A stretch of 64,000 nt of DNA, from assembly GCA_034659295.1 (NCBI GenBank), contig JAYEGX010000055.1, positions 9,726-73,725 on the forward strand, read 5' to 3'. Source of the DNA: Candidatus Altiarchaeota archaeon. Its GTDB lineage: Archaea > Altiarchaeota > Altiarchaeia > IMC4 > QMZM01. The notes below the pieces were generated by a model that ran no database searches, was not told where the DNA came from, and saw only the letters and a program-made list of their open reading frames with translations. Positions 6,436-56,039 of this stretch are shown one piece after another. The translations under genes and the position numbers were made by a program. How positions within the stretch are numbered: position 1 is the stretch's first letter; every line of letters starts with the position of its first letter.

Positions 6436-6460
6436 ATAGAAAACGTTTATTTAGATTAAC

Positions 6461-28041: not shown

Positions 28042-28071
28042 TATAGTTTAACTCAGATATAAAATTAAACC

Positions 28072-40164: not shown

Positions 40165-40652
40165 AGTTGAGTATCTCCTGGGACTATGAGGACGTCTTTC
40201 TCTTCATTGTTTTCTATGTAGTTAACCCGGATGTATTCCCTGAAAAGCTTGCTCTCTGTTTTCACTTCCTGCACCGAATTAAGCGGTATATCCAGGACCA
40301 CATCAAGCTCCTTGCCGATAATTCTCTTGTTGGTTAAGTACAGGCTCATGTACTTATGGGAGCGCCTCCCCAGCAGGCGACCCCTCTTGGAGGGAAACAA
40401 GACATAACCCTGGTCTATGCTCTCCAGGATTATTGACTCATCCTCGTCGGTTCTGGGGGGAATAACCTCCTTCTCAAAAGACATGAAAATCAGGTAGCTG
40501 CCGAACACCGCCAACAGCATGGCCAGAAAGCCTACCATGAACGGGAAACCAGTCCACAGGTTGTATACCAGAGCCAGAATCAACGCTATAACAAAACCCG
40601 CTATTACGCCCGTATATCCCAGAGCCCTTAAATCAGATTTATCCAATCTCAT
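40128..40652 (-). CDS. Membrane protein: 2 TM helices plus a cytoplasmic PH-like (bPH/YdbS-type) domain
   Basis: 174 aa. Two N-terminal helices, then a domain with a bacterial PH-like pattern (LYLTNKRIIG). Confidence 0.4.
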   Translation of the reverse strand: MRLDKSDLRALGYTGVIAGFVIALILALVYNLWTGFPFMVGFLAMLLAVFGSYLIFMSFEKEVIPPRTDEDESIILESIDQGYVLFPSKRGRLLGRRSHKYMSLYLTNKRIIGKELDVVLDIPLNSVQEVKTESKLFREYIRVNYIENNEEKDVLIVPGDTQLWIQKLRELGVA

Positions 40653-40703
40653 ATTGCCACCCTTATTTATTAGATTATTTAGGTTAAAGGGAAATAAAGG
40701 ATT

Positions 40704-42380: not shown

Positions 42381-42384
42381 TCTC

Positions 42385-43461
42385 TCAGTAATCCTCTGGT
42401 GGCTTGATGACAACCTCCTCCTCCTCAAAGGGTTTCCTCTCAATTGTTGTTTCACTCACTACCACAGCACCGCTGCTTAGTGGAGCGGCCTGGACTATCT
42501 CGAACATGAAAATCGACAGCCCCATCCAGTTCATAACACCCAGTATCATGAAGGGAACAGCAAACATAAAGATAAGTGATGTAGCGTATATGAACTCCAG
42601 CGGGAGATTAGGTGATATAACAGGGAGAGTCGCTACTGTCACGGAGACAATGATTAATCCCACAGCCCAGCCCAGCTGCAAAAAAATCCAGATGATAGTC
42701 TGCTCGAACATCATCTTCCCCGCGTTTCTGGTTAAGTCCCATGAATAAAAGAATATGGTTACCGGCAGGAGAACAGCCATCAACCCCGCCATGATGTATC
42801 GTATGAACAGTATCAGATACAGGGCCATTAATAGCACAGTATCCAGGAGGAATATCTCTATACCACCATACCTGTGTATGAGGGTTATTTTCACGAAGGT
42901 ATCAAAGAGATCCTGAGCAGCCGCCCGGAGCGAACCCAAGGCTATTGTTATATCAGCAAGGTTCATAATCTGAGATGTCAGGCTCCCGGAAACATAATAA
43001 AGCAACTCGACGAGTAAAGGGGATACAGATATGAGAACCAACCCGATAATCAGCTTACCAAACCATTTCTTAGCCCTTGCCCTGTTCAGCGGAGACTGTG
43101 AGACAAAGATTATATAGAACCCCGTTAACATTATGGCCGCAATATAAAAGGGCTGCATCAGGTTAATGAAGAAACCCATGAAATGCTTTATGCTCCACAT
43201 AGGTGGGTTGGCTTTTATCAGGGAGGGCATATTATCGAATACCGATAAATAAAAGTAATGGATAAGGTTAGCCGAGTATATAATAATCCCCTTCCTGGCC
43301 ATTTTCGCTGCTTCACTGGTTAACATATTGAGAACTCCGCTTAATCCTATCGAGTAACCAGTGTATCCTTTGGTTTTAGCAGCGGAGACTGGGGGGATAG
43401 AGGCTAACACTAAAAGGAGTAATACAACACCTACCACCAGATTTTTTGTTCTTGTTTTCAT
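42385..43461 (-). CDS. Paralogous polytopic membrane protein (family member 5), with a VirB6/TrbL-like topology
   Basis: Signal peptide plus 6 or more TM helices. Family motif LMQPFYIAAIMLTGFYIIFVSQSPLNRARAKKWFGKLIIGLVLISVSP...MFEQTIIWIFLQL. Confidence 0.55.
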   Translation of the reverse strand: MKTRTKNLVVGVVLLLLVLASIPPVSAAKTKGYTGYSIGLSGVLNMLTSEAAKMARKGIIIYSANLIHYFYLSVFDNMPSLIKANPPMWSIKHFMGFFINLMQPFYIAAIMLTGFYIIFVSQSPLNRARAKKWFGKLIIGLVLISVSPLLVELLYYVSGSLTSQIMNLADITIALGSLRAAAQDLFDTFVKITLIHRYGGIEIFLLDTVLLMALYLILFIRYIMAGLMAVLLPVTIFFYSWDLTRNAGKMMFEQTIIWIFLQLGWAVGLIIVSVTVATLPVISPNLPLEFIYATSLIFMFAVPFMILGVMNWMGLSIFMFEIVQAAPLSSGAVVVSETTIERKPFEEEEVVIKPPEDY

Positions 43462-44684
43462 GGTAAAAAGTCACGAAGGTGCTGTGCCCATATCAGGGGG
43501 AATATTATCAGCATCGCGTATATTGTAGCCCCAAGCACGAAATCCACGATATTGACTGTTGCAGGCATGGCCTCATAGAAGTCATGAAGCATGATTTCTG
43601 CCCCGGCAACCCCCACCACAGACCCTATTGCTCCACCGAGGAGTAAACCCCACCAATTAAGAACCTTTCCCGTCTGCAGCCCAATCTCCGCCGTAGATGG
43701 GCCTATAGCCAACACACTCATGAGGTCATACATGCCCCGGAGGTTTGTGAACGATATCTCGGCGTTCAAGACAACATGCTCTTCTATTGTGGTGCCGATA
43801 CCGACAAATACAACAATGATTAAGGCAATGAAGACCTGGAGGAATATCCACACAATCAACTGCTCCAGCAGTTTCTTGCCTATGCCCTTAAACCATGGGA
43901 GGCTGTAGAACAAAACCCCCAGGGGGAATAATACCATTAAGAGCGTGATAAGTATGTGCCTCAAACCCAGCACTATGTACGGGATGAAGGACATAGCAAA
44001 AAGCAGGGTGAGATAAGGGAGTCCAAGATCCGTATACGGTACCGCCGTCAAGGCATAAACCCAGAACAGGTTTTCGACTGCACCTCCCAGAGCAGCCTTT
44101 ACCTCCTCACCGCTTACCAGACTGAAAACAGACTCAGTCATCTCCTCAGACAACCCCAATAGCAGGTTTATTAGGGGTATGGATAGGGAGATAACAACCA
44201 TCGAAACCAGCAACCTGAGCAGGATATCCTTTGCCTTAGACCTTGATGAGGGCGATACGGGCATGAAGAGCAGATAGAATCCCACAGTTAATATAACCAG
44301 CACATAAACTGGTTGCAGTATCCTTATGAAAAACGCTATGAGCTCAAATATTAAGGCGTCGTGTGGTGAGGGATTGGACACTACCGCCACATGATAGTTG
44401 TTGGGGAATGACATGGCATACTTGGGCATGAATCCTCCATGGATTATTTTAACAACAAGAATCATTCTAAGAAAGTACCCCATGCCTTCACTCAAGAAAG
44501 TGCCGGTTTCTATTAATCCCTCGCTTTTCCAAAAGCTTTTTATATTACCCCATTCCCTTGATAAAAAGCCCTGTGAGAAAACGTTCGTGGAGAAGACTAT
44601 GATTAACAACAGAACCAATACTACCTGGTAATTCCTTTCCCATTCAATTTTCATTTTTTTTATGGTAAAAAGTTTCTGAACCAT
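43458..44684 (-). CDS. Paralogous polytopic membrane protein (family member 4)
   Basis: ILQPVYVLVILTVGFYLLFMPVSPSSRSKAKDILLRLLVSMVVISLSIP...LLEQLIVWIFLQVF. Confidence 0.55.
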   Translation of the reverse strand: MVQKLFTIKKMKIEWERNYQVVLVLLLIIVFSTNVFSQGFLSREWGNIKSFWKSEGLIETGTFLSEGMGYFLRMILVVKIIHGGFMPKYAMSFPNNYHVAVVSNPSPHDALIFELIAFFIRILQPVYVLVILTVGFYLLFMPVSPSSRSKAKDILLRLLVSMVVISLSIPLINLLLGLSEEMTESVFSLVSGEEVKAALGGAVENLFWVYALTAVPYTDLGLPYLTLLFAMSFIPYIVLGLRHILITLLMVLFPLGVLFYSLPWFKGIGKKLLEQLIVWIFLQVFIALIIVVFVGIGTTIEEHVVLNAEISFTNLRGMYDLMSVLAIGPSTAEIGLQTGKVLNWWGLLLGGAIGSVVGVAGAEIMLHDFYEAMPATVNIVDFVLGATIYAMLIIFPLIWAQHLRDFLP

Positions 44685-45622
44685 ATGAGCATCAACGCTG
44701 GAGTAAGCACGAGACTGAACACACCAACCAACAAAATCAAATCAAACCCGAAATTCCATAAAAATCCCGCAACCGAAAACTGTATATACATAAATCCCGG
44801 CTCTTTGGATATCATTGCTATTGCAGCAACAGCAACTACCACAGCATTAAATATCTGCAGGGAAGACCAGAGTATTGTCTGCTCCAACATGTTCCTGCCT
44901 ATGTTCTTGGTGAAATCGAAGGAGTACAGGAATATGGATAACGGGAGGAGTATAATCCACAAGAGAACAGCCAGATACCTTAATATAAGCATCAGATACG
45001 TCCCCCAGACAAGAAAGAAAAGAGGTAGGAAGGCGTAATACCCCAGCTCTACATTTATGAGACAAGACCACATATGCAGCTTTTTTAAACCCTCTATCAC
45101 CTTATTCAGGGTGTATGTGTAGTATGCGATATCAGCCTGTCCCAGAACAGATGAGGTGATGTTCTCTGTCATATAAAGGGTTATGGTCATTATTTGAGGA
45201 GCTAGTGATATCAAAGCCAGTGAAATAAACAGCTTCACCAGCATGGATTTCGCTTTATTCCTTCCTGAGGGGGTTGACGAAACAAGTATAAGATAAAACC
45301 CTGTTATCGATATGGCAAGCACATAGAAGGGTTGTAGAAGCGAAACAAAAAATCTTATTAAATCCAGCACTATAGGATCCTGGGGTGAGGGATTCATCAA
45401 AATAAAATCCCCCAGGTTGGCTGATAGCGCATCAAGCCCCCGGGTAGCATAGCTGGAAGCGACCCAGTAGTAAAACCATCTCTTTGCTAGATACGCAATA
45501 GTCATAGCTGAACCTTTGGCAGTTGCCTTCCCTGGTACATCTTTTGCACAAACAAAAACAACGATAGAGGATATTATCAATAACGCTGCTATGACCAGGA
45601 TGTATTTTCTCTCTTTTTTCAT
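44660..45622 (-). CDS. Paralogous polytopic membrane protein (family member 3)
   Basis: LLQPFYVLAISITGFYLILVSSTPSGRNKAKSMLVKLFISLALISLAP...MLEQTILWSSLQIF. Confidence 0.55.
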   Translation of the reverse strand: MKKERKYILVIAALLIISSIVVFVCAKDVPGKATAKGSAMTIAYLAKRWFYYWVASSYATRGLDALSANLGDFILMNPSPQDPIVLDLIRFFVSLLQPFYVLAISITGFYLILVSSTPSGRNKAKSMLVKLFISLALISLAPQIMTITLYMTENITSSVLGQADIAYYTYTLNKVIEGLKKLHMWSCLINVELGYYAFLPLFFLVWGTYLMLILRYLAVLLWIILLPLSIFLYSFDFTKNIGRNMLEQTILWSSLQIFNAVVVAVAAIAMISKEPGFMYIQFSVAGFLWNFGFDLILLVGVFSLVLTPALMLIWFRNFLP

Positions 45623-45624
45623 GG

Positions 45625-46824
45625 TTACGGAGGTAATAGTTTCTGGAAAAAGGTGAACATTAATATAGGCCCCAAGAGCAACATGAACATACTAGTCCAG
45701 GTGAATATGCTAATGAAGAAGGGCTCTCCCGGGATATCTAATGCATCCATAGCACCTCCTATGAGGGGTATATCGCTCTTATGGATTCCTATACCGTATG
45801 ATTCATACATGCTGGTTGGGACGATTGATATTCCCACAGCGATTACAACAACCGTGATGCCATAGAAAACCTGCAGGCTGCTCCATAAAAGAGTCTGCTC
45901 CAACATAGTCTTCCCGAATCCCCGGGTGAACTCAAAAGATGAGAAAAAGATGGTGAAAGGCAACAGGAGACCCCACAAAAAAACCATAAAGTATCTGAGG
46001 GTTAACATACCATGTATTCCTATAAGTATAAGCATCAACAACAACACGAAGGGTGTGGTCCACACAATCTCAATCTCCACCAGCTCGATTGCATGCAAAG
46101 TTTTATGTAGTTGCTTAAGGTTTTTACTGGATTTTAGGTTACCAAAAAATCCGGTTAACGTGCCAACACCACCATAAAAAGCATTGGGGGCGTTTGCCAA
46201 CATAACCAGGTTCCTTATGACACATATCATCGAGGAAAACTCTGATGCTGCTATCGAAACATAAGCCTTAGGGTTTAACTCATCCCCTATAATCTCACCG
46301 GTAGAGTTCTCCGTCAACGATAAAAGCACCCCCACCAGCTCTGAAGAGAATGAAACCAGAACCATGCTAATAATAAGCTTAGCCAGCAACGACTTAGCCC
46401 TAGCCCGACCCAGAGGGGAGCCGGGTATGAATATTATATAAAACCCGGCCATTATTATAGCCAGTATATACACAGGATAAAGCAAACCCACGAAATACCT
46501 GAGAAGGTTAAGAGCTGCCGGGTTCTTGAGGTCGGGATTCAACAAGATGTATTTAGCTAGATTATTCTCTATGTCTTCTGCGATATTAGTCATCGAAGAC
46601 CATACCAAACGCATGTAAAGCACCCTCTGAGCTAGAGCAATATTTTCACCACTAGTAAAAAGGCCGAGAACTCCTTTCGCCAGAGGGTTTTGCTCTACCT
46701 TGCCGAAAATGTTAGTGGGGTGTATAAGAGAACTCTTCCCAGAAGAAACTGCAAACGGTATGATATTCAGGACTAATACTGAAACAATCAAGACCGCAAG
46801 CAGTTTATTCCCCCCTGAATCCAT
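45625..46824 (-). CDS. Paralogous polytopic membrane protein (family member 2)
   Basis: LLYPVYILAIIMAGFYIIFIPGSPLGRARAKSLLAKLIISMVLVSFSS...MLEQTLLWSSLQVF. Confidence 0.55.
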   Translation of the reverse strand: MDSGGNKLLAVLIVSVLVLNIIPFAVSSGKSSLIHPTNIFGKVEQNPLAKGVLGLFTSGENIALAQRVLYMRLVWSSMTNIAEDIENNLAKYILLNPDLKNPAALNLLRYFVGLLYPVYILAIIMAGFYIIFIPGSPLGRARAKSLLAKLIISMVLVSFSSELVGVLLSLTENSTGEIIGDELNPKAYVSIAASEFSSMICVIRNLVMLANAPNAFYGGVGTLTGFFGNLKSSKNLKQLHKTLHAIELVEIEIVWTTPFVLLLMLILIGIHGMLTLRYFMVFLWGLLLPFTIFFSSFEFTRGFGKTMLEQTLLWSSLQVFYGITVVVIAVGISIVPTSMYESYGIGIHKSDIPLIGGAMDALDIPGEPFFISIFTWTSMFMLLLGPILMFTFFQKLLPP

Positions 46825-49800
46825 TTATCTCTTACCTCTTAAATCCTCCAACCAGCTTTCAAGCTCCATCCTGCCCACCCCAAGGAATTTATATGAGAAC
46901 ACAGCCACAACCAGAATCGCCAACAAAACAAGAATCTCAGGGGAAAGCAGCGGCGTGTAAATCTCCACAACATTAAACCGCACAACCTTATTCAGGGAGC
47001 GTCCTGTTGGGTCAACATCACCATGGTGTTTAATCTCCAGAGAGAATGTTTTATGGGCATTTAATGTGAACTCAGCGTATCCATACTCTCCAGTAACCAC
47101 AAAATATTCACCGTCTTCCTCGCTTAAACCATTAGGGCTTAGACTGGAGAGGTCAACATCCTTGCTCCACACATCAACCCTCTTACCTGACTCACCCCGG
47201 TTTTTATCAATATTATATAGCCATAACTTAACAGTCACCTCTGAGCCAGGCGATAACACCACACCCTCCGGCTCAACCACATAAAACAAATCAACAGCAT
47301 CCCTGATTTTGAACTCATCAGCATCGCTGAGATTAAGCTCCCTGTGCTCATAGAAGGTATCTATAACTAGTTTACCGTCCTCAAACTCATCCCGGGGTAT
47401 TATGTCATAATCCTCCTCCCCTGAATAGAGGTGCCTGTAGGGCTCATAGTTTGTTCTAAAGTAGAGCGTGTAGTAATGTCCTCCAGGAAACACAGCATCT
47501 GAGACGTTGTGCTTGAAGTCGACAACAATTAATTTATTAAACCCGCCCATGGATTTAGCAGCCTCCAGACCATACCAGCTCATATCCTCAATATTCTTAT
47601 TGTCGAAGATAACAAAATCATACCCCTTGCCCACATTCACGTTGTCCACGATAGATTTGTGGTTAACAGCCTCTATCTTAATGCTTTTCATCTGGGGTCG
47701 GACATCATAGCATACCTTCTCCCAATGAACCTCACACGCCTCTTTTGAGATTGTATAGACTTCATTTCCACCGTCATAGTATTCTACTGTGAGTTCTATC
47801 TCAATGCTCTTTTTGTCGTCTATCCCAAACTCTAGACACAGCTGGTTATCTGGATCAGAGGTAGCACCCTTAGGTATATATTGTATCACACCAGAACCCT
47901 GCGGGAGTTTCAGTGCGTATCCGTTTCGTCCCATAAGCCTTTCATCAACGGTTGGCATGCCGCTAACAGCCTCCCACGGACCCAGCCCGGTATCGAATCC
48001 CATCTCGAAGTCGCCGTTGACTATAACGCTGCCCTCATCCTCATGGAATGTTCTGTTGGATGTGCACGGGTTATCATATCTCTTATCCGGGGCACAGACG
48101 CAGTCATCTTTCTCAATCAAGCGGTCACCGTAGCAGGCCATATACAATGCATCCGATCTGAATTCATCAAAACAGTAGACCCGATTGTGCTCAAACTCGC
48201 ATTCAAGGAGACCTATCTCGTTAAGGTATCTGGTGCAGAGGTTGTCTATGGCCTGCTTGTTGTCCTGGATTGAGCCATCCACACAAATCCTTTCCACGAC
48301 AGGGTCATCAGAGTAATGGGTACATAGGAGTTCCTCGATGTCATCCCTGTATTTTAGGGGGTTCGTGTTAATACACAGTGGCCGCATTATGTCCTCCGGA
48401 TCGCATTCACATACTGGGGGAGGGTCACAAAATGTCTGACACTGCTCCGGGAATTCGTATTTCTCGAACTCATAACCGTAGCGGCTGCCTAAACCATAAG
48501 AGATGCTGCCTCCAGAGCTTGATTTCTTTTTTATTGTTGAATGCGAGATGGGGCTTATAATCTCACGGTAGTCTGCATCAGAGTCTCCTACAAAAAGGGT
48601 CATCCCCCTGAACAAATCCGGCTGTATGGTGAAGTTGATGAACCCGTAGGTGGTTATGAAATCCCCCTCCTTGTATCTTGTAGCGTCCAAGACCAGATGA
48701 TGGTATATGGGCGAATCCTTCCAGCCGCTTGCGCAGCCGTTGTATATCCAGGGCACCTTCTCCCAGTTATACACATGATATTCACTCTCTATCGTGCTTG
48801 TCTCCTGCTCATGATACCAGGACAGGATTTCCTCCCTCCACTGGTGCCAGCACTGATTACAGATAGCACAGTAAGGACAGCAGCAGGTGCAGGGACATAT
48901 AAGCATAATCTTCTCGCTAACTCCGCCGCACCAATCACAACAATACCCAACATTCTTATCAGCTAGAAGGAACTGGTAGTAGGGAGTAATTGCATGACAG
49001 TCACCACAGGGGCAGTCGCATTCCGGGCAGGTTTGGCACTCGTATCTGTCGCAGGCTGTATAAAACCGGTCCTCCCTGATGCCTGTTAGATAATCCTGTT
49101 TAGCTGTGAACTTTAGCTTCATGTATGAACTATTCACTACCTCGGATCTAAAAACATCAGAGTCCATGGTAAGCCTGGACCACCTCCCCAACTTGGACTT
49201 ATAGTATCTAACCGCCGTAATGTCCGAGCAACCGTCCGGGTCTTTACACTCGTAGGGCTCTGAAGCTATCCAGTAGGCGCAAGTCAGTTGGAAGGGTATG
49301 TTGGCTGTGTCGATTATCCTAAATGTACCGCCTTTAGACATCCAGATGTTTTCGCTTATGTTATAGATCTCCATCCGCTGCGGTTCCCCAAAAGGCAGCA
49401 TGCTACCAGAAGATAACCCAACCTTGAATTTTGTGCTGGCTTTAGCCCCACCCTCCAGTATATACTTGGTGAGACATAACGGCCCAGGAGCCTCCTGCTT
49501 CTGCTCTATGATGGTGTAGGGGTGGGCTTCATATTGCTGCGAACCCCCAATACAACTTGAACAATCCGTGCAAACAGACAACAGCTTCCACTTACAGTAT
49601 ATGTTATCCGAGCCCCAGATGCGCTCGTACCATGGAACCTCAAACTTCTCGAAGCCTGCCTGCCCATAGCCCACATCATTGCACTCCTCCGGGGGGCAGT
49701 CCCTCATAAGCTGGTATTGTGTGATAACCTCACATGGTATAGGATTCATCTGGTCAGGACCACCCCAGCAGTCGCCGTGTGGAGGTACTAACTGATTAGG

Positions 49801-51474
49801 CAGGCATTCAGGCGCCTCTTCTTCATCAGACTTGCATTCATCGTCCACGCCACGATAAAGCTTGCAGGGGCCTGTCTGCAGGGTACCGGGAGGATCATCC
49901 TCTGAATCGAAACCAGAGCATAAATCAAAGGGTGGAGCCTCACCATCACAATGCTCGTATTGTGTGGCATCATCGTCCATGGGATCAAAGGGATCGCATT
50001 CCTCTAACAGCTCACATGGGGTCCCATGCCGGCAGCTCCAGTCACATGCATCCGTCCTGTCCTGCCCGGAACCCACATACCTATCTGTATCAACCCCCTC
50101 CGCATAACCCCACGCGCCGCATTTAACTGGACCAGTCACCGCTATCAGGGGAGAGAGCATGAAAAACCTGACCCAGAGACCATGCCACGCCTTCGTTATA
50201 TCCTCCAGAGGAGGTCCCATAATGGTTCCAAGTATCACCTCCCCATCAGGCCCCTTAAACGTAACAGCGCTCTTGTTCGGCATCTCGTTGATGTACACAA
50301 AGACATCATTCCAGTTTTTCTGGTCCCGGATGTATAACTCATCGACTGAAAGCAGGTTAGCATTCTCTGTGAAAGAATACATCATATACGGCAGCTCATA
50401 GCAGTAGCTGTCATCCCTTAAGCCTGTTTTATAGCAGTAGAGTCTCTCGGACTCATCCATACCCCCAAGAGACCGGATGTAGTGCTTAGCCCAGGCCTCA
50501 AAAAATGTGACATAAACCTCATCCGCCCCAAGGAAGGTGTGTATGTTGTAGAAGGTTGCTGGTTCATCAGGCAGAGAATCATCACCTGATAAATCCGCTA
50601 AAGAAGCCGCTCCATCCATACTATGGTAGTGCTCGACAAGCGCCTTATACAATAAATCATTAACCAAAGTCCACGTATGGTTTGAGGCACCCCCATACGC
50701 CTCCAATATAAAACAACGTTTTTCAGCGTCCATAATCCAGTACTTCACCTGGTTCTCTCCGGTGAAATCCTCATAAGGCTGGAATTCACAGACCAGGGAT
50801 TCCTCATTCCACACGCATTTCTTGGTTTTAGAGCAAGCGTATTCTGTAGCGTATTCACTGCACCTGTAGGATGGCTTAGAGGCTGCGACCAAAAACCGGG
50901 AGGGGTTTATCACAAGCTCCATCTCCTGATCTTCACTTTCACCCCGCCCCAGATCACCTGTCCTGGTGCATCTGGCGATGGGGGTGGAGGAGTAGCCGAA
51001 TGCGTAGGAATCCTCCCGCTCGTATTGTCTCAGAATCCTGTCCTGGCTGGAAATGAAGGCATAGTCTTTTTCATCAACACTGCTGCCTTCATCCAACACC
51101 TCACATTCATCTAAATCCAACAACAGGGTCTTAAAGCAGTAATATCTGTTTCCGCCTTCTGTTTTCACATACACTTCAGGTTTTATGGTAATATTCGCCT
51201 CAGGGGTTCCATCGTTTGTTACATTAATGCTTCCGTTGTGATACAGGTATGCGTCCGCTATACCAGCGAATCCCAGGTTCTCATAATCCGGTGGTTCACC
51301 ATCTGATAGAGGCAGGTAGGGCACCTGATGACAGTTTGTATCCCCCCAATCACAGTCCTCAGCCTCGCTATAGGGCCCATAGCTTATGCCGCAGAGATCC
51401 TCCTCCTGGGCGGTTACAACGCTGAAAGAAAACAGGAACAATAAAGCTGCAGCATACAGGGGGAAGGATTTCAT
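46825..51474 (-). CDS. Giant (1549 aa) Cys-rich secreted protein with a C-terminal TM anchor. Adhesin or structural surface protein; first gene of the minus-strand cluster.
   Basis: Signal peptide MKSFPLYAAALLFLFSFSVVTAQ. Cys-rich throughout (e.g. CPCTCCCPYCAICNQCW, CDWCGG), with many N-x-S/T sites. C-terminal LLSPEILVLLAILVVAVFSYKF plus a charged tail. Its stop abuts the start of the next gene (46824/46825). Confidence 0.6.
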   Translation of the reverse strand: MKSFPLYAAALLFLFSFSVVTAQEEDLCGISYGPYSEAEDCDWGDTNCHQVPYLPLSDGEPPDYENLGFAGIADAYLYHNGSINVTNDGTPEANITIKPEVYVKTEGGNRYYCFKTLLLDLDECEVLDEGSSVDEKDYAFISSQDRILRQYEREDSYAFGYSSTPIARCTRTGDLGRGESEDQEMELVINPSRFLVAASKPSYRCSEYATEYACSKTKKCVWNEESLVCEFQPYEDFTGENQVKYWIMDAEKRCFILEAYGGASNHTWTLVNDLLYKALVEHYHSMDGAASLADLSGDDSLPDEPATFYNIHTFLGADEVYVTFFEAWAKHYIRSLGGMDESERLYCYKTGLRDDSYCYELPYMMYSFTENANLLSVDELYIRDQKNWNDVFVYINEMPNKSAVTFKGPDGEVILGTIMGPPLEDITKAWHGLWVRFFMLSPLIAVTGPVKCGAWGYAEGVDTDRYVGSGQDRTDACDWSCRHGTPCELLEECDPFDPMDDDATQYEHCDGEAPPFDLCSGFDSEDDPPGTLQTGPCKLYRGVDDECKSDEEEAPECLPNQLVPPHGDCWGGPDQMNPIPCEVITQYQLMRDCPPEECNDVGYGQAGFEKFEVPWYERIWGSDNIYCKWKLLSVCTDCSSCIGGSQQYEAHPYTIIEQKQEAPGPLCLTKYILEGGAKASTKFKVGLSSGSMLPFGEPQRMEIYNISENIWMSKGGTFRIIDTANIPFQLTCAYWIASEPYECKDPDGCSDITAVRYYKSKLGRWSRLTMDSDVFRSEVVNSSYMKLKFTAKQDYLTGIREDRFYTACDRYECQTCPECDCPCGDCHAITPYYQFLLADKNVGYCCDWCGGVSEKIMLICPCTCCCPYCAICNQCWHQWREEILSWYHEQETSTIESEYHVYNWEKVPWIYNGCASGWKDSPIYHHLVLDATRYKEGDFITTYGFINFTIQPDLFRGMTLFVGDSDADYREIISPISHSTIKKKSSSGGSISYGLGSRYGYEFEKYEFPEQCQTFCDPPPVCECDPEDIMRPLCINTNPLKYRDDIEELLCTHYSDDPVVERICVDGSIQDNKQAIDNLCTRYLNEIGLLECEFEHNRVYCFDEFRSDALYMACYGDRLIEKDDCVCAPDKRYDNPCTSNRTFHEDEGSVIVNGDFEMGFDTGLGPWEAVSGMPTVDERLMGRNGYALKLPQGSGVIQYIPKGATSDPDNQLCLEFGIDDKKSIEIELTVEYYDGGNEVYTISKEACEVHWEKVCYDVRPQMKSIKIEAVNHKSIVDNVNVGKGYDFVIFDNKNIEDMSWYGLEAAKSMGGFNKLIVVDFKHNVSDAVFPGGHYYTLYFRTNYEPYRHLYSGEEDYDIIPRDEFEDGKLVIDTFYEHRELNLSDADEFKIRDAVDLFYVVEPEGVVLSPGSEVTVKLWLYNIDKNRGESGKRVDVWSKDVDLSSLSPNGLSEEDGEYFVVTGEYGYAEFTLNAHKTFSLEIKHHGDVDPTGRSLNKVVRFNVVEIYTPLLSPEILVLLAILVVAVFSYKFLGVGRMELESWLEDLRGKR

Positions 51475-52140
51475 TTTCGTTTGTTATATTATTACCCAAA
51501 CAGTAATATATCCCATAGTCTGGTTAATTGATGGTTTTGAATAACCCCTTGTTTTTATGGTTAAGTATTTGCTTTATCAAATATTTAAGCGATAGGTGGG
51601 TGATTGATTCTGTCTTTTTAGGATCATGTTTTTACGGGAGACTGTAGGAGCGTGTTCAAGGGCTTAGGTGATCATAAGATAGGGGAACACAGGAAAACTG
51701 GTGGAATACACCCGGAAGAAACAAAAAAAAAGGGGGAGTTAAGCAAACCACTCTATTCTCTTTCTCAAGTTGTTGGATACGAACTTCAAATTGCTTAATA
51801 CGCTTTTCCAGTTGTTCGACGTATGCGTCTTTGTCGAGCATAAAGGCATATAATGCAAGCTCCTATTTCTGTTTATTGGTTTTAGCCTCCCAAAACAGAT
51901 AACTACATGAAGCTAAACACGTGCGATTTAACCTTTTATGAGCAGACTAGCATTTCACGTGAGTGGCTGTAAGGGCAACATCAGTTGAGGGTATGATCCT
52001 GGAGGTGAGAAGGAAGTTTATGTTCTACAGCATGTTCTTGGGCTTGTGAATGGAGCTAAGAGGGACGTAAAGATATTAAGCTGGAGAACTTAATAGTTAT
52101 TGTTGAACTGGATTATTCAACACAGCATAGCGTGTAGAGA

Positions 52141-55100
52141 ATGAGAAGGATTGCCTTACTGTCTATGATGGGAGTGATAGGGATTCTGCTGATGTTATTG
52201 GTTGCGGCAGCATCAGCAACAGTAGTTGTCTTAGATCCAGGTCACGGAGGCAAAGACCCTGGTGCTGTAGGTCCAACAGGATTACAAGAGAAAGATGTTG
52301 CTCTCCAAGTTGCGTTAAAGACTAAATCACTACTAGAAGCATCTGGGATAACTGTTATTTTGACCCGATCTACGGATACATATGTTAGTTTAAGTGAGAG
52401 GGTGAATATAGCTAATAATGCCAATGCGGATTTATTTGTATCTATTCATTGCAATGCTTTTACGGATCCATCAGCACATGGGACCGAGACATGGTATAGC
52501 TCAAGTGCTCCAGACCCGGATAAAGCAAAAAAACTTGCAGAATTCGTGCAATCTGAACTCTTATCTCAGCTAGGATTACGTGATCGAGGAGTCAAAAAGA
52601 ATGGATTTTATGTTATAAAGTATACAGATATGCCCTCTTGCCTAGCAGAATTGGCATTCATTTCGAATCCCAACGAAGAGGTACTTTTAGCAGATCCAAG
52701 CTTCCAGCAGAAAGCAGCACGAGGGATATATGAGGGAATTATGGATTATTTAGGGATATTTCCGCCTTGTTCTCTAGACTCCGTCTCAATACAACCAGAT
52801 TGCTCTGGAGGCTCCTCCCCCAAATGTGAAAAGGGTGAGCGAATCAAGATAGATGTAACATATAGCGGAGATTGCCCATCCACCGCGTATATACAGATTG
52901 GCGCCAAAAGCGGAGACGGTAAATGCGTCATAGAGCATACTGGCGGAAACATGGTGGGAATGGATATATCCTGCACTTCTTCTCCATGTACAGGCTACTG
53001 GACGATTCCAGAGATACCACCAAACTGCCTATGCAAGAATATGAATGCAGCAGGAGCTGGGATATATAAAGACAGCATCTCTCCAGAAAATTATCTCGAC
53101 GGCATAACAGCCACAGGGTCGTTTGAATTCTGGTGCCCTAAAGCCCCCGTCGCAGACGCAAGAGTCGGTAGAACAGCAGACGAAAAACTAAAAGAAATCA
53201 CTGTCAAAGTCGGCGACACTGTCTACTTCGACGGAGAAACATATTCCGTTGGGAAAATAACGGAATACAGCTGGGACTTTACCGGGGATGGAATATACGA
53301 CTGGAGCTCAACAACAACCGGAAAAACCACCCACCAATACAATGAAAAGGGGTCCTACATCGCCGAACTAAAAATCACCAACGACAAAGGCGAAACAGAC
53401 ACAGACATTGTTATCATCCACGTAGTAGAAGAAGAGGAAGAACCTACCTTCCTCTCAGATATCTGCCCCGCTCCGCCGAACGATTACTTGATGAGGATGA
53501 TATGTCTGGTTGTGCCCATCCTTTGTGTGATAATGAACATCCTGGTGCCAGTAATGTTTGTCCTAGTTGCCTTAGGGGGTTTGATGCAGCTGAGCACCGA
53601 CGGGGGGATAAAAAACAAGGGTAAACAGGTGATATTCAACACCATCCTTGGGGTGGTTATTATCTCAGCATTCATAGGTTTATCGGATTTATTGATAGAG
53701 GAAGTCAACATCATGGAGGTGTGTTTACTCGGGGAGATTCCGCCGCCTGCTTTAAGAGCGTATATTGATGCTGACCCGACCTCCGGACCCCCACCACTTG
53801 AGGTTTCCTTAACCGGGAGCGCATCCGGGGGAACCGCACCCTACACCTACAGCTGGGACTGTGGTGGAGGAACCCCAGAGGTGACAGGCTCAAACACCGC
53901 AACATGCACATACACAAGCGAAGGAACATACACTGTAACATTAACCGTAACAGACGCGGAAGATGGAACAGCCACAGCCACCCAGACAATAACCGTTAAA
54001 GTAGCTGAGTTAAAAGCGTATATTGATGCTGAACCGACCTCCGGACCCCCACCACTTGAGGTTTCCTTAACCGGGAGCGCATCCGGGGGAACCGCACCCT
54101 ACACCTACAGCTGGGACTGTGGAGGAGGAACCCTAGCAGTCACAGGCTCAAACACCGCAACATGCACATACACAAGCGAAGGAACATACACTGTAACATT
54201 AACCGTAACAGACGCGGAAGATGGAACAGCAACAGCCACCCAGACAATAACCGTTGGAGTAGTAGTTGAGTGCGAGGATCCGTCATGTGATGAGATCTAC
54301 GGTTACATAGACGGCGCCATCGCAGGCTTAGGGGTGGACGACAGTTTGGTGAGGGCTGTGATAAAAAAAGAAAGTGATTATCACCAGTGTTGCTTTGGCC
54401 CCTACATTGGGGTTACATGTGAGGAAGGTGAGGTCCTTAAATCACATGCTGGGGCTTTGGGTTTGATGCAGCTGATGCCGGGGACAGCCAGCGAGTTAGG
54501 CGTTGATCCTGAGGACCCGCAGCAGAATGTTGAGGGAGGCGTTAGGTACCTGAACACGCAGCTAAATGAATTTGGCAGTGTGGAGCTGGCTCTCGCCGCC
54601 TATAACATGGGGCCCGGGTATGTGGCGTGTTCGCTGGGTTATGATTGGCCTGTCTGTGCACAATATCCAGGATATGATCTATGTGGTGCCGGAGTATGTA
54701 AGGCTCCAGCTGAACGGAATTGGGCTTGTCTTAGTACATGCTCTATCCCTGCTGAAACATTAGGATACGTTAATGGCATAATGGGGATTATAGGAACATC
54801 TGCAGCGGATTGCAGTGATCTGCCTACGCCTACAGCATCCTTCACCGCAAACCCTCTAACAGGACCTGCACCCCTCACAGTCGACGTGGATGCTTCCGCT
54901 TCAACAGGAGCAACAACCTACACTTGGGGCTGGGAGGACGGAACCCCGGGTGGTTCAGGAGTAACTGCATCACACGAATACACAACCGACGGAACCTACA
55001 CCATAACCCTGACCGTATCAGACGGCACATACACAGACACAGACACTGAAACAATAATTGTCGGTTCGTTATCAGTGTCCATTGAATCACCACCTGATGG

Positions 55101-56031
55101 AGCATCATTTGCTGAAGGCGATACAATTGAGTTTCGTGGTACGGTAGGGGGCGGAACTCCTCCCTATACCCTCGAATGGGGTTCCAGTATAGATGGAGTC
55201 ATAGGTACTGAATCTGGTTTCTACTATGATGAATTATCTCAGGGAACGCATACCATTACTTTAACTGTAACAGACAGTAGCAGTCCTCAGAAAACAGGAG
55301 GTGCTACAGTGGATATAACAATAACTGAGCCGGAGTGTAGAGCAGTAATAGAAAATGGAGACCATGATGCTAAAATCGATGTCGTCTTCATTAGAGCATT
55401 TGACGCACAACCGGATGCGTTACCGCCTAATTTCGAAAATATGATAGACTCGGCAAAAATTGATTTTATTCACACAGTCCCTATCAGAGATAATACAGAT
55501 AAATTCAACTACTATTACTACACAAAAAAGGGCAGCGTGTATGCGGGTTCTAATGGTCTTTGCGCTGGGAGTTCTCCTCCCGGCTATATTACATACTGCA
55601 GTTTCGCAGACACAACCGCATACCTGCACAAAGAAACATGTAGGGACTGTTCGCATACGTCTGCAACTCTTGATCCCCCCATGCCGGGAAGCAGCTTCAC
55701 TGTCACAGATAATTTTCATAAGCATAAAACCTTCACTCATGAGGCGGGACATGCAATATTCAATTTAAGAGATGAATACTATGACCTGCTTCCAATCCAC
55801 CGGGAGCTTTCTTCAAACCCTAATATATGGTCAAGCCAGGCCAACTGTGAGGCAGATAGAACCTCTGAAGGCTGGACGGAAGCATGTGAGCAGATATGCG
55901 ATGCTAGTGGAACAAATTGTGTGGATTATTGGAGGCTGGATTATGATTGCATTATGAGAGTGCATATGAACGTGAATTTCTGTCCGGCATGCAGTAGGAG
56001 GATTAGTTGGGTATTTACTCTCTTTAATTAG
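52141..56031 (+). CDS. Giant (1296 aa) multidomain cell-wall-hydrolase-like surface protein: Amidase_3 (N-acetylmuramoyl-L-alanine amidase), PKD, a mid-protein TM hairpin, 2x PKD, SLT lytic-transglycosylase domain, PKD/Ig-like, and a peptidase M64-like HExxH metalloprotease domain
   Basis: Amidase_3 region [18 protein letters not shown]...[10 protein letters not shown]...TETWY...[12 protein letters not shown] region [11 protein letters not shown]...[17 protein letters not shown]...[12 protein letters not shown]64-like region [10 protein letters not shown]...[17 protein letters not shown] hairpin [28 protein letters not shown] / [18 protein letters not shown]. Confidence 0.7.
53750..54265 (+). 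repeat. Near-identical (~97%) tandem duplication (2 x 258 bp), each unit encoding one PKD domain
   Basis: ttaa(g/a)agcgtatattgatgctga(c/a)ccgacctccggacccccaccacttgaggtttcc... occurs twice (53750 and 54008) with only a handful of substitutions. Confidence 0.8.
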
Positions 56032-56039
56032 GGGTGTGT

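What the first reader, a model, noticed from the sequence alone, without database searches (positions are those of the whole stretch)
46825..51474. 1549-aa extremely Cys-rich secreted protein with C-terminal anchor heads the cluster
It has a signal peptide, a C-terminal TM helix and a charged tail. There are dozens of Cys in irregular clusters (e.g. CPCTCCCPYCAICNQCW, CDWCGGVSEKIMLICPC), abundant N-glycosylation sequons, and no recognisable enzymatic motif. The size and composition fit an adhesin, receptor-binding or structural fibre protein. Its stop directly abuts the first membrane paralog, which suggests co-translation into a complex.
Basis: seen in the sequence. Interest (0 to 1): 0.6.

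Follow-up and report, generated by a model that had tools for sequence, protein, structure and literature searches.

The report
Giant anchored protein heading VirB6-like operon
This is a real 1549-residue cysteine-rich surface protein found only in Altiarchaeota, and it is the first gene of a conserved, apparently undescribed operon whose membrane partners resemble parts of the bacterial type IV secretion (conjugation) machine, so it is probably the outward-facing arm of a new archaeal cell-contact apparatus.

Summary
The ORF (46825-51474, minus strand) is real. It is conserved full-length in five independent assemblies. It has 71 Cys (49 invariant), a Sec-type signal and a C-terminal TM helix plus tail. 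It matches no Pfam, NCBIfam or PDB entry. Only "abundant sequons" fails (11 vs 6.4 expected, one conserved).

An exhaustive HMMER scan of 1.84 billion proteins found only about 22 distant relatives. They are mostly giant and Cys-rich, and every named one is from Altiarchaeota. They share two orphan modules, a CBM-like jelly-roll and a conserved C-terminal anchor motif (SPE.L-TM-FSY[KR]F...WW.[DE]L[KR]G[KR][KR]).

In 8 of 8 loci the giant gene is translationally coupled to downstream membrane paralogs. There are five wherever the array is complete, and they are position-specific orthologs in 91 of 92 comparisons. A paralog model hits only R388 TrwI/VirB6 in the PDB, and 16 of 24 paralogs hit PF18895 (VirB2-like pilin). 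A 175-205-aa protein (where present), a PF18895 hairpin protein and, in four loci, an SLT murein hydrolase complete the cluster. No VirB4 or VirD4 ATPase is linked.

Best reading: the giant is the anchored extracellular stalk or adhesin of a T4SS-derived, possibly hetero-pentameric envelope apparatus. It is not the hamus, not a recognisable S-layer protein, and not an artefact. Its function is inferred, not shown.

The parts
46825..51474 (-). Giant Cys-rich type-I anchored protein (1549 aa; mature 173.7 kDa, pI 4.5), first gene of the operon
   Evidence: ORF and translation. Five full-length homologs. Composition.
51406..51474 (-). Sec-type signal peptide, residues 1-23 (MKSFPLYAAALLFLFSFSVVTA|QEE)
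   Evidence: Hydrophobic segment 2-23, read directly from the sequence. No dedicated signal-peptide predictor was available.
49960..50562 (-). Conserved orphan module M1, residues ~305-505 (GGMDESER...YINEMP...GSGQDR.DAC)
   Evidence: Shared with distant giant relatives. No PDB relative.
49474..50121 (-). Acidic Cys-spaced region, residues ~452-667; nearly all its Cys are invariant
48331..49407 (-). Conserved orphan module M2, residues ~690-1048; its 935-1045 stretch is the most widely shared piece of the superfamily
   Evidence: No PDB relative.
48850..49053 (-). Cys knot, residues 808-875 (18 Cys): conserved frame ACDRxxCxCxxC...CGG[VI]SEK with a hypervariable Cys-dense insert
47605..48027 (-). 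CBM-like jelly-roll beta-sandwich, residues ~1150-1290 (NGDFExG...W motif)
   Evidence: AF2 island with pLDDT about 60-76. Foldseek hits to CBM11/16/29/61 and MAM, E 2e-5 to 7e-4, TM 0.38-0.49.
46990..47292 (-). Membrane-proximal Ig-like beta-sandwich, residues ~1395-1495
   Evidence: AF2 island with pLDDT 65-85, all beta.
46828..46956 (-). Conserved C-terminal anchor module, residues 1507-1549: SPEIL-TM-FSYKF-x-ELESWLEDLRGKR-COOH
   Evidence: Motif shared by about 20 divergent giant proteins, once per locus, always at the extreme C-terminus. No known CTERM sorting-signal model hit.
45625..46824 (-). VirB6-like paralog 1 (399 aa), start abuts the giant's stop
44660..45622 (-). VirB6-like paralog 2 (320 aa)
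43458..44684 (-). VirB6-like paralog 3 (408 aa)
42385..43461 (-). VirB6-like paralog 4 (358 aa); the modelled one
   Evidence: AF2 pLDDT 68.9 with seven long helices after the signal. Top 5 PDB hits are all TrwI/VirB6. PF18895 at 23.3 bits.
40704..42455 (-). VirB6-like paralog 5 (583 aa from GTG; probable true start is the ATG at 42380, giving 558 aa) with a ~280-aa extracellular N-terminal extension
40128..40652 (-). Small two-TM protein with a bPH-like C-terminal domain (174 aa), the most conserved component of the operon
37255..40164 (-). Terminal operon protein (969 aa): signal, 2 PKD, Cys-rich, VirB2-like TM hairpin (472-541), orphan C-terminal domain
   Evidence: The counterparts in L006 and L008 pass the PF18895 gathering threshold.
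52141..56031 (+). Divergently transcribed murein hydrolase (1296 aa): Amidase_3, internal TM hairpin (447-522), 4 PKD, SLT, orphan C-terminus
   Evidence: SLT proteins hold the same position in L002, L003 and L006.

Best explanation
The gene encodes the large extracellular, membrane-anchored subunit of an Altiarchaeota-specific envelope apparatus derived from the mating-pair-formation part of a type IV secretion system.

Shown:
- It is a real, conserved type-I membrane protein with a Sec signal, a roughly 1480-residue acidic Cys-rich ectodomain, one C-terminal TM helix and a conserved 20-residue cytoplasmic tail.
- It is always the first gene of an operon, translationally coupled to membrane paralogs: five position-conserved ones wherever the array is complete.
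- Those paralogs have a VirB6-like fold and a VirB2-like (PF18895) N-terminal hairpin.
- After the paralogs come a small two-TM protein (in the loci that extend that far) and a PF18895 hairpin protein. An SLT (VirB1-like) murein hydrolase is often encoded divergently next door.

Inferred:
- The five paralogs form a hetero-pentameric membrane platform like the VirB6 pentamer of the R388 stalk.
- The giant protein docks on this platform through its conserved TM and tail module, taking the distal position that VirB5 (diderm T4SS) or anchored adhesins such as PrgB (monoderm T4SS) occupy.
- Its conserved membrane-proximal half (Ig-like domain, CBM-like jelly-roll, helical Cys domain, module M2) acts as a rigid, disulfide- or metal-stabilised stalk.
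- Its variable N-terminal half is the contact or binding head.
- The hairpin-anchored amidase/SLT enzyme locally opens bacterial peptidoglycan at the contact site, since the archaeon itself has no murein.
For: Real gene: five collinear full-length homologs at 42-100% identity from independent assemblies.

Structural Cys: 49 of 71 invariant, against 34% invariance overall.

Rarity and taxonomy: only 3 of 185,579 species genomes and 24 hits in 1.84 billion proteins. Named members are all Altiarchaeota.

Conserved anchor motif: present in about 20 relatives even though the search profile excluded the C-terminus.

Operon rule: the giant is followed by five genes of 310-580 aa, then a ~175-205-aa gene, then a T4SS_pilin hairpin protein, in the window, L003, L006, L008 and the P0037 locus. 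The L009, P0031 and L005 loci also start with the giant and the paralog array. The IMC4 locus has the first paralog and then an assembly gap.

Positional orthology: 91 of 92 best hits fall at the same position.

Coupled junctions: TAAATG, TAATG or ATGA in six loci.

VirB6-like fold: the top five of 350,542 PDB chains are all TrwI/VirB6, with probability 1.00, TM about 0.5 and whole-chain coverage, followed by a sharp drop. The model has seven long helices, as described for VirB6 (PMC9259494).

VirB2-like hairpin: 16 of 24 paralogs hit PF18895 and no other family recurs. The terminal proteins in L006 and L008 score 45.4 and 42.8 bits against a gathering threshold of 26.6. VirB6/CedA proteins are known to begin with a VirB2-like region (PMC9905601).

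SLT neighbour: found in four loci, including a distant one, and it carries a similar hairpin.

Variable head, conserved base: the giant aligns over only 731-914 of 1549 residues in distant loci while its partners align end to end. Relatives carry VWA or beta-propeller domains. A CBM-like domain is present.

Pentamer precedent: the R388 stalk is a VirB6 pentamer plus a VirB5 pentamer (PMC9259494). Rickettsia has five tandem VirB6 genes and no VirB5 (PMC2653234).
Against: No VirB4, VirD4 or any other dedicated ATPase lies within about 10 kb in any of eight loci, and VirB4 is the one universal T4SS component.

The VirB6 link is fold-level only. It rests on modest Foldseek E-values (3e-3 to 4e-2) from one model with pLDDT 69. 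A 24-sequence paralog profile shows no sequence similarity to TrwI beyond unrelated membrane controls, and a paralog profile finds nothing in the PDB by sequence.

In the window itself all PF18895 hits are below the gathering threshold.

The giant protein has no detectable similarity to VirB5, PrgB or any adhesin family, and only about a third of its C-terminal half could be modelled with confidence. The N-terminal half was not modelled.

Docking of the anchor on the paralogs, the hetero-pentamer and a bacterial target are all inferences. The murein hydrolase is absent next to the giant gene in L005 and some other loci.
Confidence: 0.5

Rival explanations
1. It is an S-layer-type or envelope-scaffold protein, comparable to a SlaB- or tetrabrachion-like stalk: a large, acidic, Sec-exported, C-terminally anchored protein that builds the cell envelope of hami-less Altiarchaeota. 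On this reading the downstream membrane proteins serve as its insertion or anchoring factors rather than as a secretion-system remnant.
For: The general plan matches many archaeal S-layer anchors: signal peptide, 169-kDa acidic ectodomain, beta-sandwich domains near the membrane, and a C-terminal TM helix with a short tail. The locus is chromosomal and flanked by housekeeping genes. The Alti-2 clade lacks hami and has no described S-layer (PMC4975002).
Against: There are no S_layer_N, S_layer_C or PGF-CTERM signatures. The family is extremely rare and divergent even within the phylum. One metagenome sample holds two different giant-plus-paralog loci, P0031 and P0037, which is unlike a single housekeeping S-layer gene. 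The obligatory link to five VirB6-like genes, PF18895 proteins and SLT enzymes is not a feature of known S-layer loci.
Confidence: 0.15
2. It is the structural conduit or strut of a transport machine rather than an adhesin. In a double-membraned Altiarchaeote the giant Cys-rich ectodomain would span the periplasm and replace the VirB7/9/10 core or stalk of a T4SS-like channel used for DNA or protein import or export. The channel would be powered by an ATPase encoded elsewhere, as in the Ced/Ted systems or the Rickettsia 'archipelago'.
For: T4SS-like parts are present. Ced and Ted are minimal archaeal T4SS derivatives (PMC9905601). Rickettsia T4SS genes are scattered over five islets (PMC2653234). 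Ca. Altiarchaeum has two membranes (PMC4460559). The C-terminal two-thirds of the giant are conserved at superfamily level, as expected for a structural part.
Against: No ATPase was seen in eight neighbourhoods. A double membrane is not documented for the Alti-2 or hydrothermal lineage. The N-terminal half is lineage-variable, which fits a binding head better than a channel wall.
Confidence: 0.2
3. The Cys clusters are metal or iron-sulfur binding sites, and the protein is an extracellular redox, metal-handling or electron-transfer component.
For: There are 10 CxxC and 7 CxC spacings and a conserved CxxxxCxxCxxCxC frame at 808-821. The organism is anaerobic and hydrothermal, where extracellular disulfides would be hard to maintain.
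Against: There are no hits to any Fe-S, cytochrome or metallothionein family. The densest Cys stretch is hypervariable and partly deleted in a homolog. Most conserved Cys are widely spaced singles, as in disulfide-stabilised ectodomains. The operon partners have no redox domains.
Confidence: 0.05
4. The ORF is an assembly or annotation artefact, such as a fusion of several genes.
For: None found. The only relevant points are that the source is a MAG and the ORF is unusually long.
Against: The same uninterrupted, collinear reading frame of about 1500-1560 aa occurs in five independent assemblies at 42-100% identity. Distant relatives keep the same module order.
Confidence: 0.01

Closest known systems
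VirB6/TrwI-VirB5/TrwJ stalk of the R388 conjugative type IV secretion system (PDB 7o3v, 8rtd)
   Same: The downstream paralogs have a VirB6-like seven-helix fold, with TrwI as the only specific PDB match. There are five of them, and VirB6 is a pentamer that carries a distal extracellular pentamer of VirB5 (PMC9259494). VirB2-like and VirB1-like (SLT) components are also encoded.
   Different: Five distinct paralogs replace a homo-pentamer. No VirB4, VirB3, VirB8-11 or VirD4 is linked. The distal protein is a 1549-aa C-terminally anchored Cys-rich giant with no similarity to the ~220-aa VirB5. The system is archaeal and chromosomal, with no sequence similarity to TrwI.
Rickettsiales vir homolog (rvh) T4SS with five tandem VirB6 paralogs (RvhB6a-e)
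   Same: Both have an 'extraordinary' five-fold tandem duplication of VirB6-like genes with divergent extensions, and both lack VirB5 (PMC2653234).
   Different: Rickettsia keeps VirB4, VirB8-11 and VirD4. Its VirB6 proteins are themselves the giants (674-1154 aa). Here the paralogs are small and a separate giant protein heads the operon.
Tandem VirB2-like (PF18895) pilin arrays of Patescibacteria T4SS-like systems
   Same: Both use the same Pfam family (PF18895) and have tandem arrays of divergent paralogs at about 25% identity. Both lack a relaxase and occur in uncultivated subsurface lineages (PMC12102498).
   Different: The Patescibacteria arrays are short pilins, usually near virB4. Here the hairpin is the N-terminal part of VirB6-sized proteins or is embedded in 300-1300-aa ectodomain proteins, and no VirB4 is nearby.
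Archaeal Ced/Ted DNA-import systems (CedA/TedA VirB6-like, CedA1/TedC VirB2-like, CedB/TedB VirB4-like)
   Same: They are domesticated, minimal, chromosomal T4SS derivatives in archaea. CedA begins with a CedA1-like hairpin (PMC9905601), which is the architecture seen in the paralogs here.
   Different: Ced and Ted have one VirB6-like gene and a VirB4 ATPase, and no giant anchored protein or murein hydrolase. No sequence similarity was detected, although Ced and Ted sequences were not compared directly.
Anchored surface adhesins of monoderm conjugation operons (e.g. PrgB of pCF10) and large SLT-domain proteins of Pacearchaeota/Woesearchaeota
   Same: In pCF10 a large signal-peptide-bearing, C-terminally anchored surface protein is encoded ahead of the channel genes, together with a cell-wall hydrolase, PrgK (PMC11323569). 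The placement of the adhesin genes ahead of the channel genes is from my own knowledge of pCF10, not from a paper read here. Giant extracellular SLT proteins in DPANN have been proposed to bind bacterial walls (PMC8204110).
   Different: The target has no LPXTG or sortase signal and no PrgB-type domains. Its anchor is a TM helix plus a conserved tail. The DPANN SLT giants have not been reported with VirB6-like arrays.
Hamus subunit of Ca. Altiarchaeum hamiconexum
   Same: It comes from the same phylum and is a large, acidic, Sec-exported, beta-rich surface protein.
   Different: The hamus protein has S_Layer_N, NosD and FKBP_C domains, is soluble without a C-terminal anchor and is Gly/Thr-rich (PMC4460559, PMC4975002). 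The target has none of these domains, and its named relatives are from non-Alti-1 Altiarchaeota such as IMC4, which is Alti-2.

Membership tests
Type IV secretion system (mating-pair-formation module) | VirB4-family ATPase, the only ubiquitous T4SS protein | tested here: not met
   No VirB4, HerA, FtsK or VirD4 domain appears in the 64-kb window or within about 10 kb of the giant gene in seven other loci. Presence elsewhere in the genomes could not be tested.
Type IV secretion system (mating-pair-formation module) | VirB6-like polytopic membrane protein | tested here: inconclusive
   At fold level, the top five PDB hits are all TrwI/VirB6, with probability 1.00 and TM about 0.5. At sequence level, hhalign against TrwI scores the same as controls, the PDB profile search gives 0 hits and there is no TrbL/VirB6 Pfam hit.
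Type IV secretion system (mating-pair-formation module) | VirB2-like pilin hairpin (PF18895 / TrbC) | tested here: met
   The terminal proteins in L006 and L008 score 45.4 and 42.8 bits against a gathering threshold of 26.6, with secondary TrbC hits. 16 of 24 paralogs hit PF18895. The hits in the window itself are sub-threshold at 18.7-23.3 bits.
Type IV secretion system (mating-pair-formation module) | VirB1-like lytic transglycosylase | tested here: met
   An SLT domain scores 61 bits in window 52141-56031. SLT proteins hold the same divergent position in L002, L003 and L006.
VirB5 / T4SS tip adhesin | Sequence or domain similarity of the giant protein to the VirB5/TrbJ families | tested here: not met
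   The target has no Pfam or NCBIfam hit at all, in whole-protein or segment scans.
Hamus subunit (Altiarchaeum grappling hook) | S_Layer_N, NosD and FKBP_C domains; soluble protein without a C-terminal anchor | tested here: not met
   None of these Pfam domains are present, and the target has a C-terminal TM anchor. The hamus features are taken from PMC4975002 and PMC4460559. No direct alignment to the hamus sequence was made.
Archaeal S-layer glycoprotein | S-layer N- or C-terminal domains or a PGF-CTERM/archaeosortase signal; lattice formation | tested here: not met
   No such Pfam or NCBIfam models hit. Lattice formation and abundance cannot be tested with these tools.
SPEARE proteins of Nanohaloarchaeota | Serine protease, adhesion and restriction-endonuclease domains in one giant protein | tested here: not met
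   No protease or endonuclease domains were detected. The definition of SPEARE is from my own knowledge (Hamm et al. 2019).
Known C-terminal sorting signals (LPXTG, PGF-/PEF-/PEP-CTERM) | Signature motif, then a TM helix, then a short basic tail, recognised by curated NCBIfam models | tested here: not met
   The NCBIfam scan at E<=1 gives 0 hits for the target. The motif here has a 20-residue conserved tail ending [KR]G[KR][KR].
Carbohydrate-binding module (jelly-roll) | Beta-jelly-roll fold with a ligand-binding cleft | tested here: inconclusive
   Foldseek hits to CBM11/16/29/61 at E 2e-5 to 7e-4 and TM 0.38-0.49, from a medium-confidence island of a poor model. No CBM Pfam hit.

The most novel reading that the evidence does not exclude
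Altiarchaeota carry a previously unrecognised, chromosomally fixed machine derived from a type IV secretion system. Five different VirB6-like subunits form a hetero-pentameric base. A giant Cys-rich protein with its own dedicated C-terminal docking module forms the distal arm. Hairpin-anchored amidase and lytic-transglycosylase enzymes breach bacterial peptidoglycan. This would be an archaeon-to-bacterium contact apparatus for attachment, predation or DNA/nutrient acquisition, working without a cluster-encoded VirB4 ATPase.
Probability: 0.2. Interest if true: 0.9.

Novelty: new variant of a known kind. Interest (0 to 1): 0.66.

Why it matters
If the reading holds, it adds a third lineage of domesticated T4SS-like machinery in archaea, after conjugative plasmids and Ced/Ted, with an unusual design: five fixed VirB6 paralogs, no linked ATPase, giant anchored ectodomain proteins and integrated murein hydrolases.

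It would give the hami-less majority of Altiarchaeota, which are abundant subsurface and hydrothermal carbon fixers, a candidate cell-contact organelle. It would point to direct physical interaction between these archaea and bacteria.

It also defines several new sequence objects that can be searched and tested: two orphan ectodomain modules, a hypervariable Cys knot, and a C-terminal TM-plus-tail anchor motif that marks the whole superfamily. The five-paralog, pentamer correspondence offers a natural experiment on how VirB6 platforms assemble, and it is relevant to the unexplained five VirB6 genes of Rickettsia.

Tried and rejected
1. Pfam, NCBIfam and PDB sequence searches of the whole target and of ten overlapping segments at E<=10 found nothing.
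2. The AF2 model of residues 796-1505 from a 5-sequence alignment had mean pLDDT 42, with only three usable islands. I did not model the N-terminal half and spent the second job on a paralog instead.
3. Profiles of the conserved modules M1 and M2, built from distant relatives, found only noise in the PDB.
4. The profile of the C-terminal anchor searched against the 5.8-billion-protein word index returned one fragment and not even the source proteins, so it was uninformative.
5. The paralog profile against PDB sequences gave 0 hits. hhalign of the 24-paralog profile against TrwI, TrwL, TrwJ and TrwM was indistinguishable from unrelated membrane controls.
7. My eyeballed LAS/M15 peptidase motif in the N-terminus of the 969-aa protein has no Pfam or PDB support and is dropped.
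8. Hamus identity is rejected on domain content and architecture.
9. Mobile-element origin is rejected. There are no tblastn matches in 72,556 plasmids or 50,697 phages, none in IMG/VR, and the flanks are housekeeping genes.
10. Internal repeats in the target: none found.
11. Sequon enrichment is not significant.
12. The metagenome scan with the 174-aa probe found only 5 short loci and no new context.
13. The search for related loci with the divergent alignments A2 and A9 failed for lack of conserved stretches.
14. No tRNA or Rfam features occur in the window.

Full report
**1. Observation**

The ORF at 46825-51474 on the minus strand is exactly as described: 1549 codons with an ATG start.
- It contains 71 Cys (4.58%). 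These are concentrated at residues 801-900 (18 Cys) and 501-600 and 1001-1100 (9 each), and there are none after residue 1255.
- The N-terminus MKSFPLYAAALLFLFSFSVVTA|QEE is a textbook Sec signal.
- Residues ~1510-1530 form the only other hydrophobic helix, followed by the tail YKFLGVGRMELESWLEDLRGKR.
- The mature protein is 173.7 kDa with pI 4.5.
- The TAA stop is followed directly by the ATG of the next gene.
- The quoted Cys strings are present.
- There are no matches in Pfam or NCBIfam, none in PDB sequences, and none in ten overlapping segments scanned against Pfam at E<=10.

One element fails. There are 11 N-x-S/T sequons against 6.4 expected from composition (Poisson p=0.06), and only one is conserved in the family.

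High Cys is also partly a trait of this organism's secreted proteins. Others in the window have 2.5-5.4% Cys, while the polytopic membrane proteins have 0-0.6%.

**2. It is a real, conserved gene of Altiarchaeota**

A search of 5.8 billion clustered proteins returned five full-length relatives:
- the query itself, from a Candidatus Altiarchaeota MAG;
- proteins at 86% and 84% identity, one from Altiarchaeales ex4484_2;
- a 64% homolog whose extra ~320 residues are an N-terminal extension, probably a miscalled start;
- a 42% homolog.

They align collinearly. 49 of 71 Cys are invariant, against 527 of 1549 positions overall. This rules out a fusion or frameshift artefact and shows the Cys are structural.

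The densest run, CPCTCCCPYCAICNQCW, is hypervariable and partly deleted in the 42% homolog. A frame ACDRxxCxCxxC...CGG[VI]SEK is conserved.

Only 3 of 185,579 species-representative genomes encode a relative. None occurs in plasmid, phage or IMG/VR collections.

**3. A wider superfamily and a conserved anchor**

I ran an exhaustive HMMER scan of 1.84 billion representative proteins with a profile of residues 24-1140. It found 24 proteins at E<=1e-3. Two are full-length family representatives. Of the other 22, all but one weak 1215-aa hit with almost no Cys (P0036) have 2-5.4% Cys; most are giant (850-2570 aa) and a few are short, probably fragments.

BLAST mapping shows collinear shared pieces:
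- module M1 (~305-505);
- module M2 (~690-1048, with 935-1045 nearly universal);
- the region 1120-1300;
- the extreme C-terminus.

The C-terminus was not part of the search profile. Even so, about 20 of these proteins end with the same module: SP(E/L)(I/F)L, a hydrophobic helix, FSY(K/R)(F/W)(F/L), a conserved acidic residue, WW.(D/E)(L/F)(K/R)G(K/R)(K/R)-COOH. It occurs once per locus, always at the C-terminus of the giant protein. It matches no curated sorting-signal model.

So the "TM helix and charged tail" is a specific, conserved anchor or docking module.

All relatives that carry a source name are Altiarchaeota, including IMC4, which belongs to the hami-less Alti-2 clade (PMC4975002).

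M1 and M2 profiles find nothing among solved structures.

A poor AF2 model of residues 796-1505 (mean pLDDT 42) has three usable islands. One, at ~1150-1290, matches carbohydrate-binding jelly-rolls at modest scores. Another, at ~1395-1495, is an Ig-like sandwich next to the membrane.

**4. The operon**

The target is the first of eight co-directional genes, 37255-51474. They encode, in order:
- the giant protein;
- five polytopic membrane paralogs (399, 320, 408, 358 and 583 aa);
- a 174-aa two-TM protein with a bPH-like domain;
- a 969-aa protein with two PKD domains, 5.4% Cys and an internal TM hairpin.

The same order recurs around every relative examined.

| Locus | Genes after the giant (aa) |
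|---|---|
| L003 | 400 / 274 / 398 / 358 / 550, then 174 |
| L005 | 455 / 316 / 401 / 358, then the fetched stretch ends |
| L006 | 390 / 325 / 350 / 334 / 373, then 205, then 501 |
| L008 | 465 / 332 / 353 / 329 / 357, then 199, then 319 |
| L009 | 443 / 400 / 432 / 346 / 384, then Band_7 |
| P0037 locus | 421 / 347 / 359 / 336 / 377, then Band_7, 89, then 205, then 615 |
| P0031 locus | 432 / 312 / 310 / 316 / 405, then 801 |

The one apparent exception is IMC4. It has an unannotated paralog ORF abutting the giant's stop that runs into an assembly gap.

Across five loci, paralog i best matches paralog i elsewhere in 91 of 92 comparisons. The five-fold duplication is therefore ancient and the order is fixed.

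The junction between the giant and paralog 1 is TAAATG, TAATG or ATGA in six loci.

The flanks are housekeeping genes, and no ATPase of the VirB4, VirD4, HerA or FtsK kind is nearby in any locus.

**5. What the partners are**

*Hairpin.* Three window proteins give sub-threshold hits to PF18895, T4SS_pilin. Scanned individually, 16 of 24 paralogs hit PF18895 (best E 1.8e-6), and no other family recurs. The terminal operon proteins in L006 and L008 pass the gathering threshold (45.4 and 42.8 bits against 26.6), with secondary TrbC/VirB2 hits. The hairpin of the 969-aa protein also weakly matches a Mycoplasma ICE pilin-like model.

*Fold.* An AF2 model of paralog 4 (pLDDT 68.9) has seven long helices after the signal. 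Among 350,542 PDB chains its five best Foldseek hits are all TrwI/VirB6 of the R388 T4SS stalk, with probability 1.00, TM ~0.5 and whole-chain alignments. Scores then drop sharply to non-specific helical proteins.

*Literature context.* VirB6 is described as seven long helices forming a pentamer that carries a VirB5 pentamer (PMC9259494). VirB6 and CedA are known to begin with a VirB2/CedA1-like region (PMC9905601), which is the layout seen here.

*Against.* A 24-paralog profile shows no sequence similarity to TrwI beyond unrelated membrane controls, and the PDB profile search is empty. The VirB6 assignment therefore rests on fold plus hairpin, not on sequence.

*Murein hydrolase.* The divergent neighbour (52141-56031) is Amidase_3 + 4 PKD + SLT. 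SLT proteins occupy the same position in L002, L003 and the distant L006. The window, L003 and L002 enzymes carry an internal TM hairpin that aligns end to end with the paralog-hairpin HMM. The alignment is weak, but well above the unrelated membrane controls, as is the alignment of the genuine VirB2 pilin TrwL.

**6. Mechanism proposed**

Shown:
- The target is a type-I anchored, Cys-stabilised extracellular giant.
- It is obligatorily co-encoded and translationally coupled with the VirB6-like paralog array, which numbers five fixed paralogs wherever it is complete.
- The operon also holds a small two-TM protein, PF18895 hairpin proteins and often an SLT or amidase enzyme.

Inferred:
- The five paralogs form a hetero-pentameric platform, by analogy with the VirB6 pentamer.
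- The giant's conserved TM and tail module docks on it.
- The conserved membrane-proximal half forms a rigid stalk.
- The lineage-variable N-terminal half makes contact with a target surface. This half aligns over only 731-914 of 1549 residues in distant loci, and some relatives carry VWA or beta-propeller domains.
- Because archaea have no murein, the anchored hydrolase most plausibly acts on bacterial walls.

The absence of a linked VirB4 means this should not be filed as a T4SS. It works like, and probably descends from, the envelope part of one.

**7. Comparison and novelty**

The closest known systems are:
- the R388 stalk;
- the five tandem VirB6 genes of Rickettsia, which also lacks VirB5 (PMC2653234);
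- the tandem PF18895 arrays of Patescibacteria (PMC12102498);
- the minimal archaeal Ced/Ted systems (PMC9905601);
- the giant SLT proteins of Pacearchaeota and Woesearchaeota (PMC8204110).

None combines five fixed VirB6 paralogs, a giant anchored protein with a dedicated C-terminal module, and integrated murein hydrolases.

None of the top-listed papers from three full-text searches combining Altiarchaeota or Altiarchaeum with T4SS, VirB4, VirB6 or murein-hydrolase terms links the two; the one paper that mentions both Altiarchaeota and lytic transglycosylases (PMC8204110) treats them separately.

The protein is not the hamus subunit, because the domains and architecture differ.

I rate it a new variant of a known kind. 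The protein itself is built of undescribed domains.

**8. Verdict**

My confidence in each step:
- about 0.95 that the gene is real;
- about 0.8 that it functions with the downstream paralogs;
- about 0.7 that those are VirB6-like;
- about 0.5 for the stalk or adhesin role as stated.

Noticed in passing
window 52141-56031 (+): A 1296-aa secreted protein in an archaeon with Amidase_3 (residues 29-200), an internal two-helix TM hairpin (447-522), four PKD domains, an SLT lytic transglycosylase (723-829) and a ~470-aa orphan C-terminal region. Two different peptidoglycan-cleaving activities sit on either side of a membrane hairpin.
   Followed up: partly
window 37255-40164 (-): A 969-aa terminal operon protein with a signal peptide, two PKD domains, 5.4% Cys, GDGDGDGD linkers, a VirB2-like hairpin at 472-541 and a ~430-aa orphan C-terminal domain. 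I suspected a LAS/M15 peptidase motif in its N-terminus, but this got no Pfam or PDB support.
   Followed up: partly
window 40128-40652 (-): A 174-aa two-TM protein with a weak bPH-like C-terminal domain is the most conserved component of the operon (96% identity in L003, 36-42% in distant loci). Its role is unknown.
   Followed up: partly
window 2476-8608 (+): There are two large secreted hydrolases in tandem. One is a 1319-aa GHL15 + GH5 cellulase, and the other is a 715-aa protein with two esterase/PHB-depolymerase-like domains. They suggest an extracellular polymer-degrading lifestyle for this Altiarchaeote.
   Followed up: no
window 9983-11257 (-): A TnpB-like ORF (Cas12f1-like TNB domain) sits between an ACT-domain gene and homoserine dehydrogenase. 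A 340-aa antisense ORF overlaps it.
   Followed up: no
window 27091-29987 (+): A MoxR-type AAA_3 ATPase and a DUF58/VWA pair are preceded by a DUF7502 protein. They are not linked to the operon.
   Followed up: no
window 56034-56810 (+) and 36445-36984 (-): Two orphan ORFs border the cluster. One is a 258-aa two-TM protein immediately after the murein hydrolase, and the other is a 179-aa soluble protein after the operon end. Neither has a family hit, so whether they belong to the system is unknown.
   Followed up: partly
L007:14182-15300 (Ca. Altiarchaeales IMC4, GCA_001742785.1): An unannotated 372-codon ORF abutting the giant relative's stop is a VirB6-like paralog that runs into a run of N (a scaffold gap). 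The public annotation therefore hides the operon in this genome.
   Followed up: yes
L009 and the P0037 locus: In two distant loci a Band_7 (stomatin/prohibitin-type) gene is inserted after the fifth paralog. L009 and the P0031 locus also have a second, divergently oriented set of 300-350-aa genes, which may be further paralogs.
   Followed up: no
window 62202-63979 (-): Two adjacent MetE-like ORFs (324 and 268 aa) each match both the Meth_synt_1 and Meth_synt_2 models. They are tandem short cobalamin-independent methionine synthase paralogs.
   Followed up: no
window 51475-52140: The 666-bp divergent intergenic region between the giant gene and the murein hydrolase has an A/T-rich TATA-like stretch (TAATAATATAAC) roughly 10-20 nt upstream of the giant's ATG. 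It also holds a short coiled-coil-like minus-strand ORF around 51750-51840.
   Followed up: no
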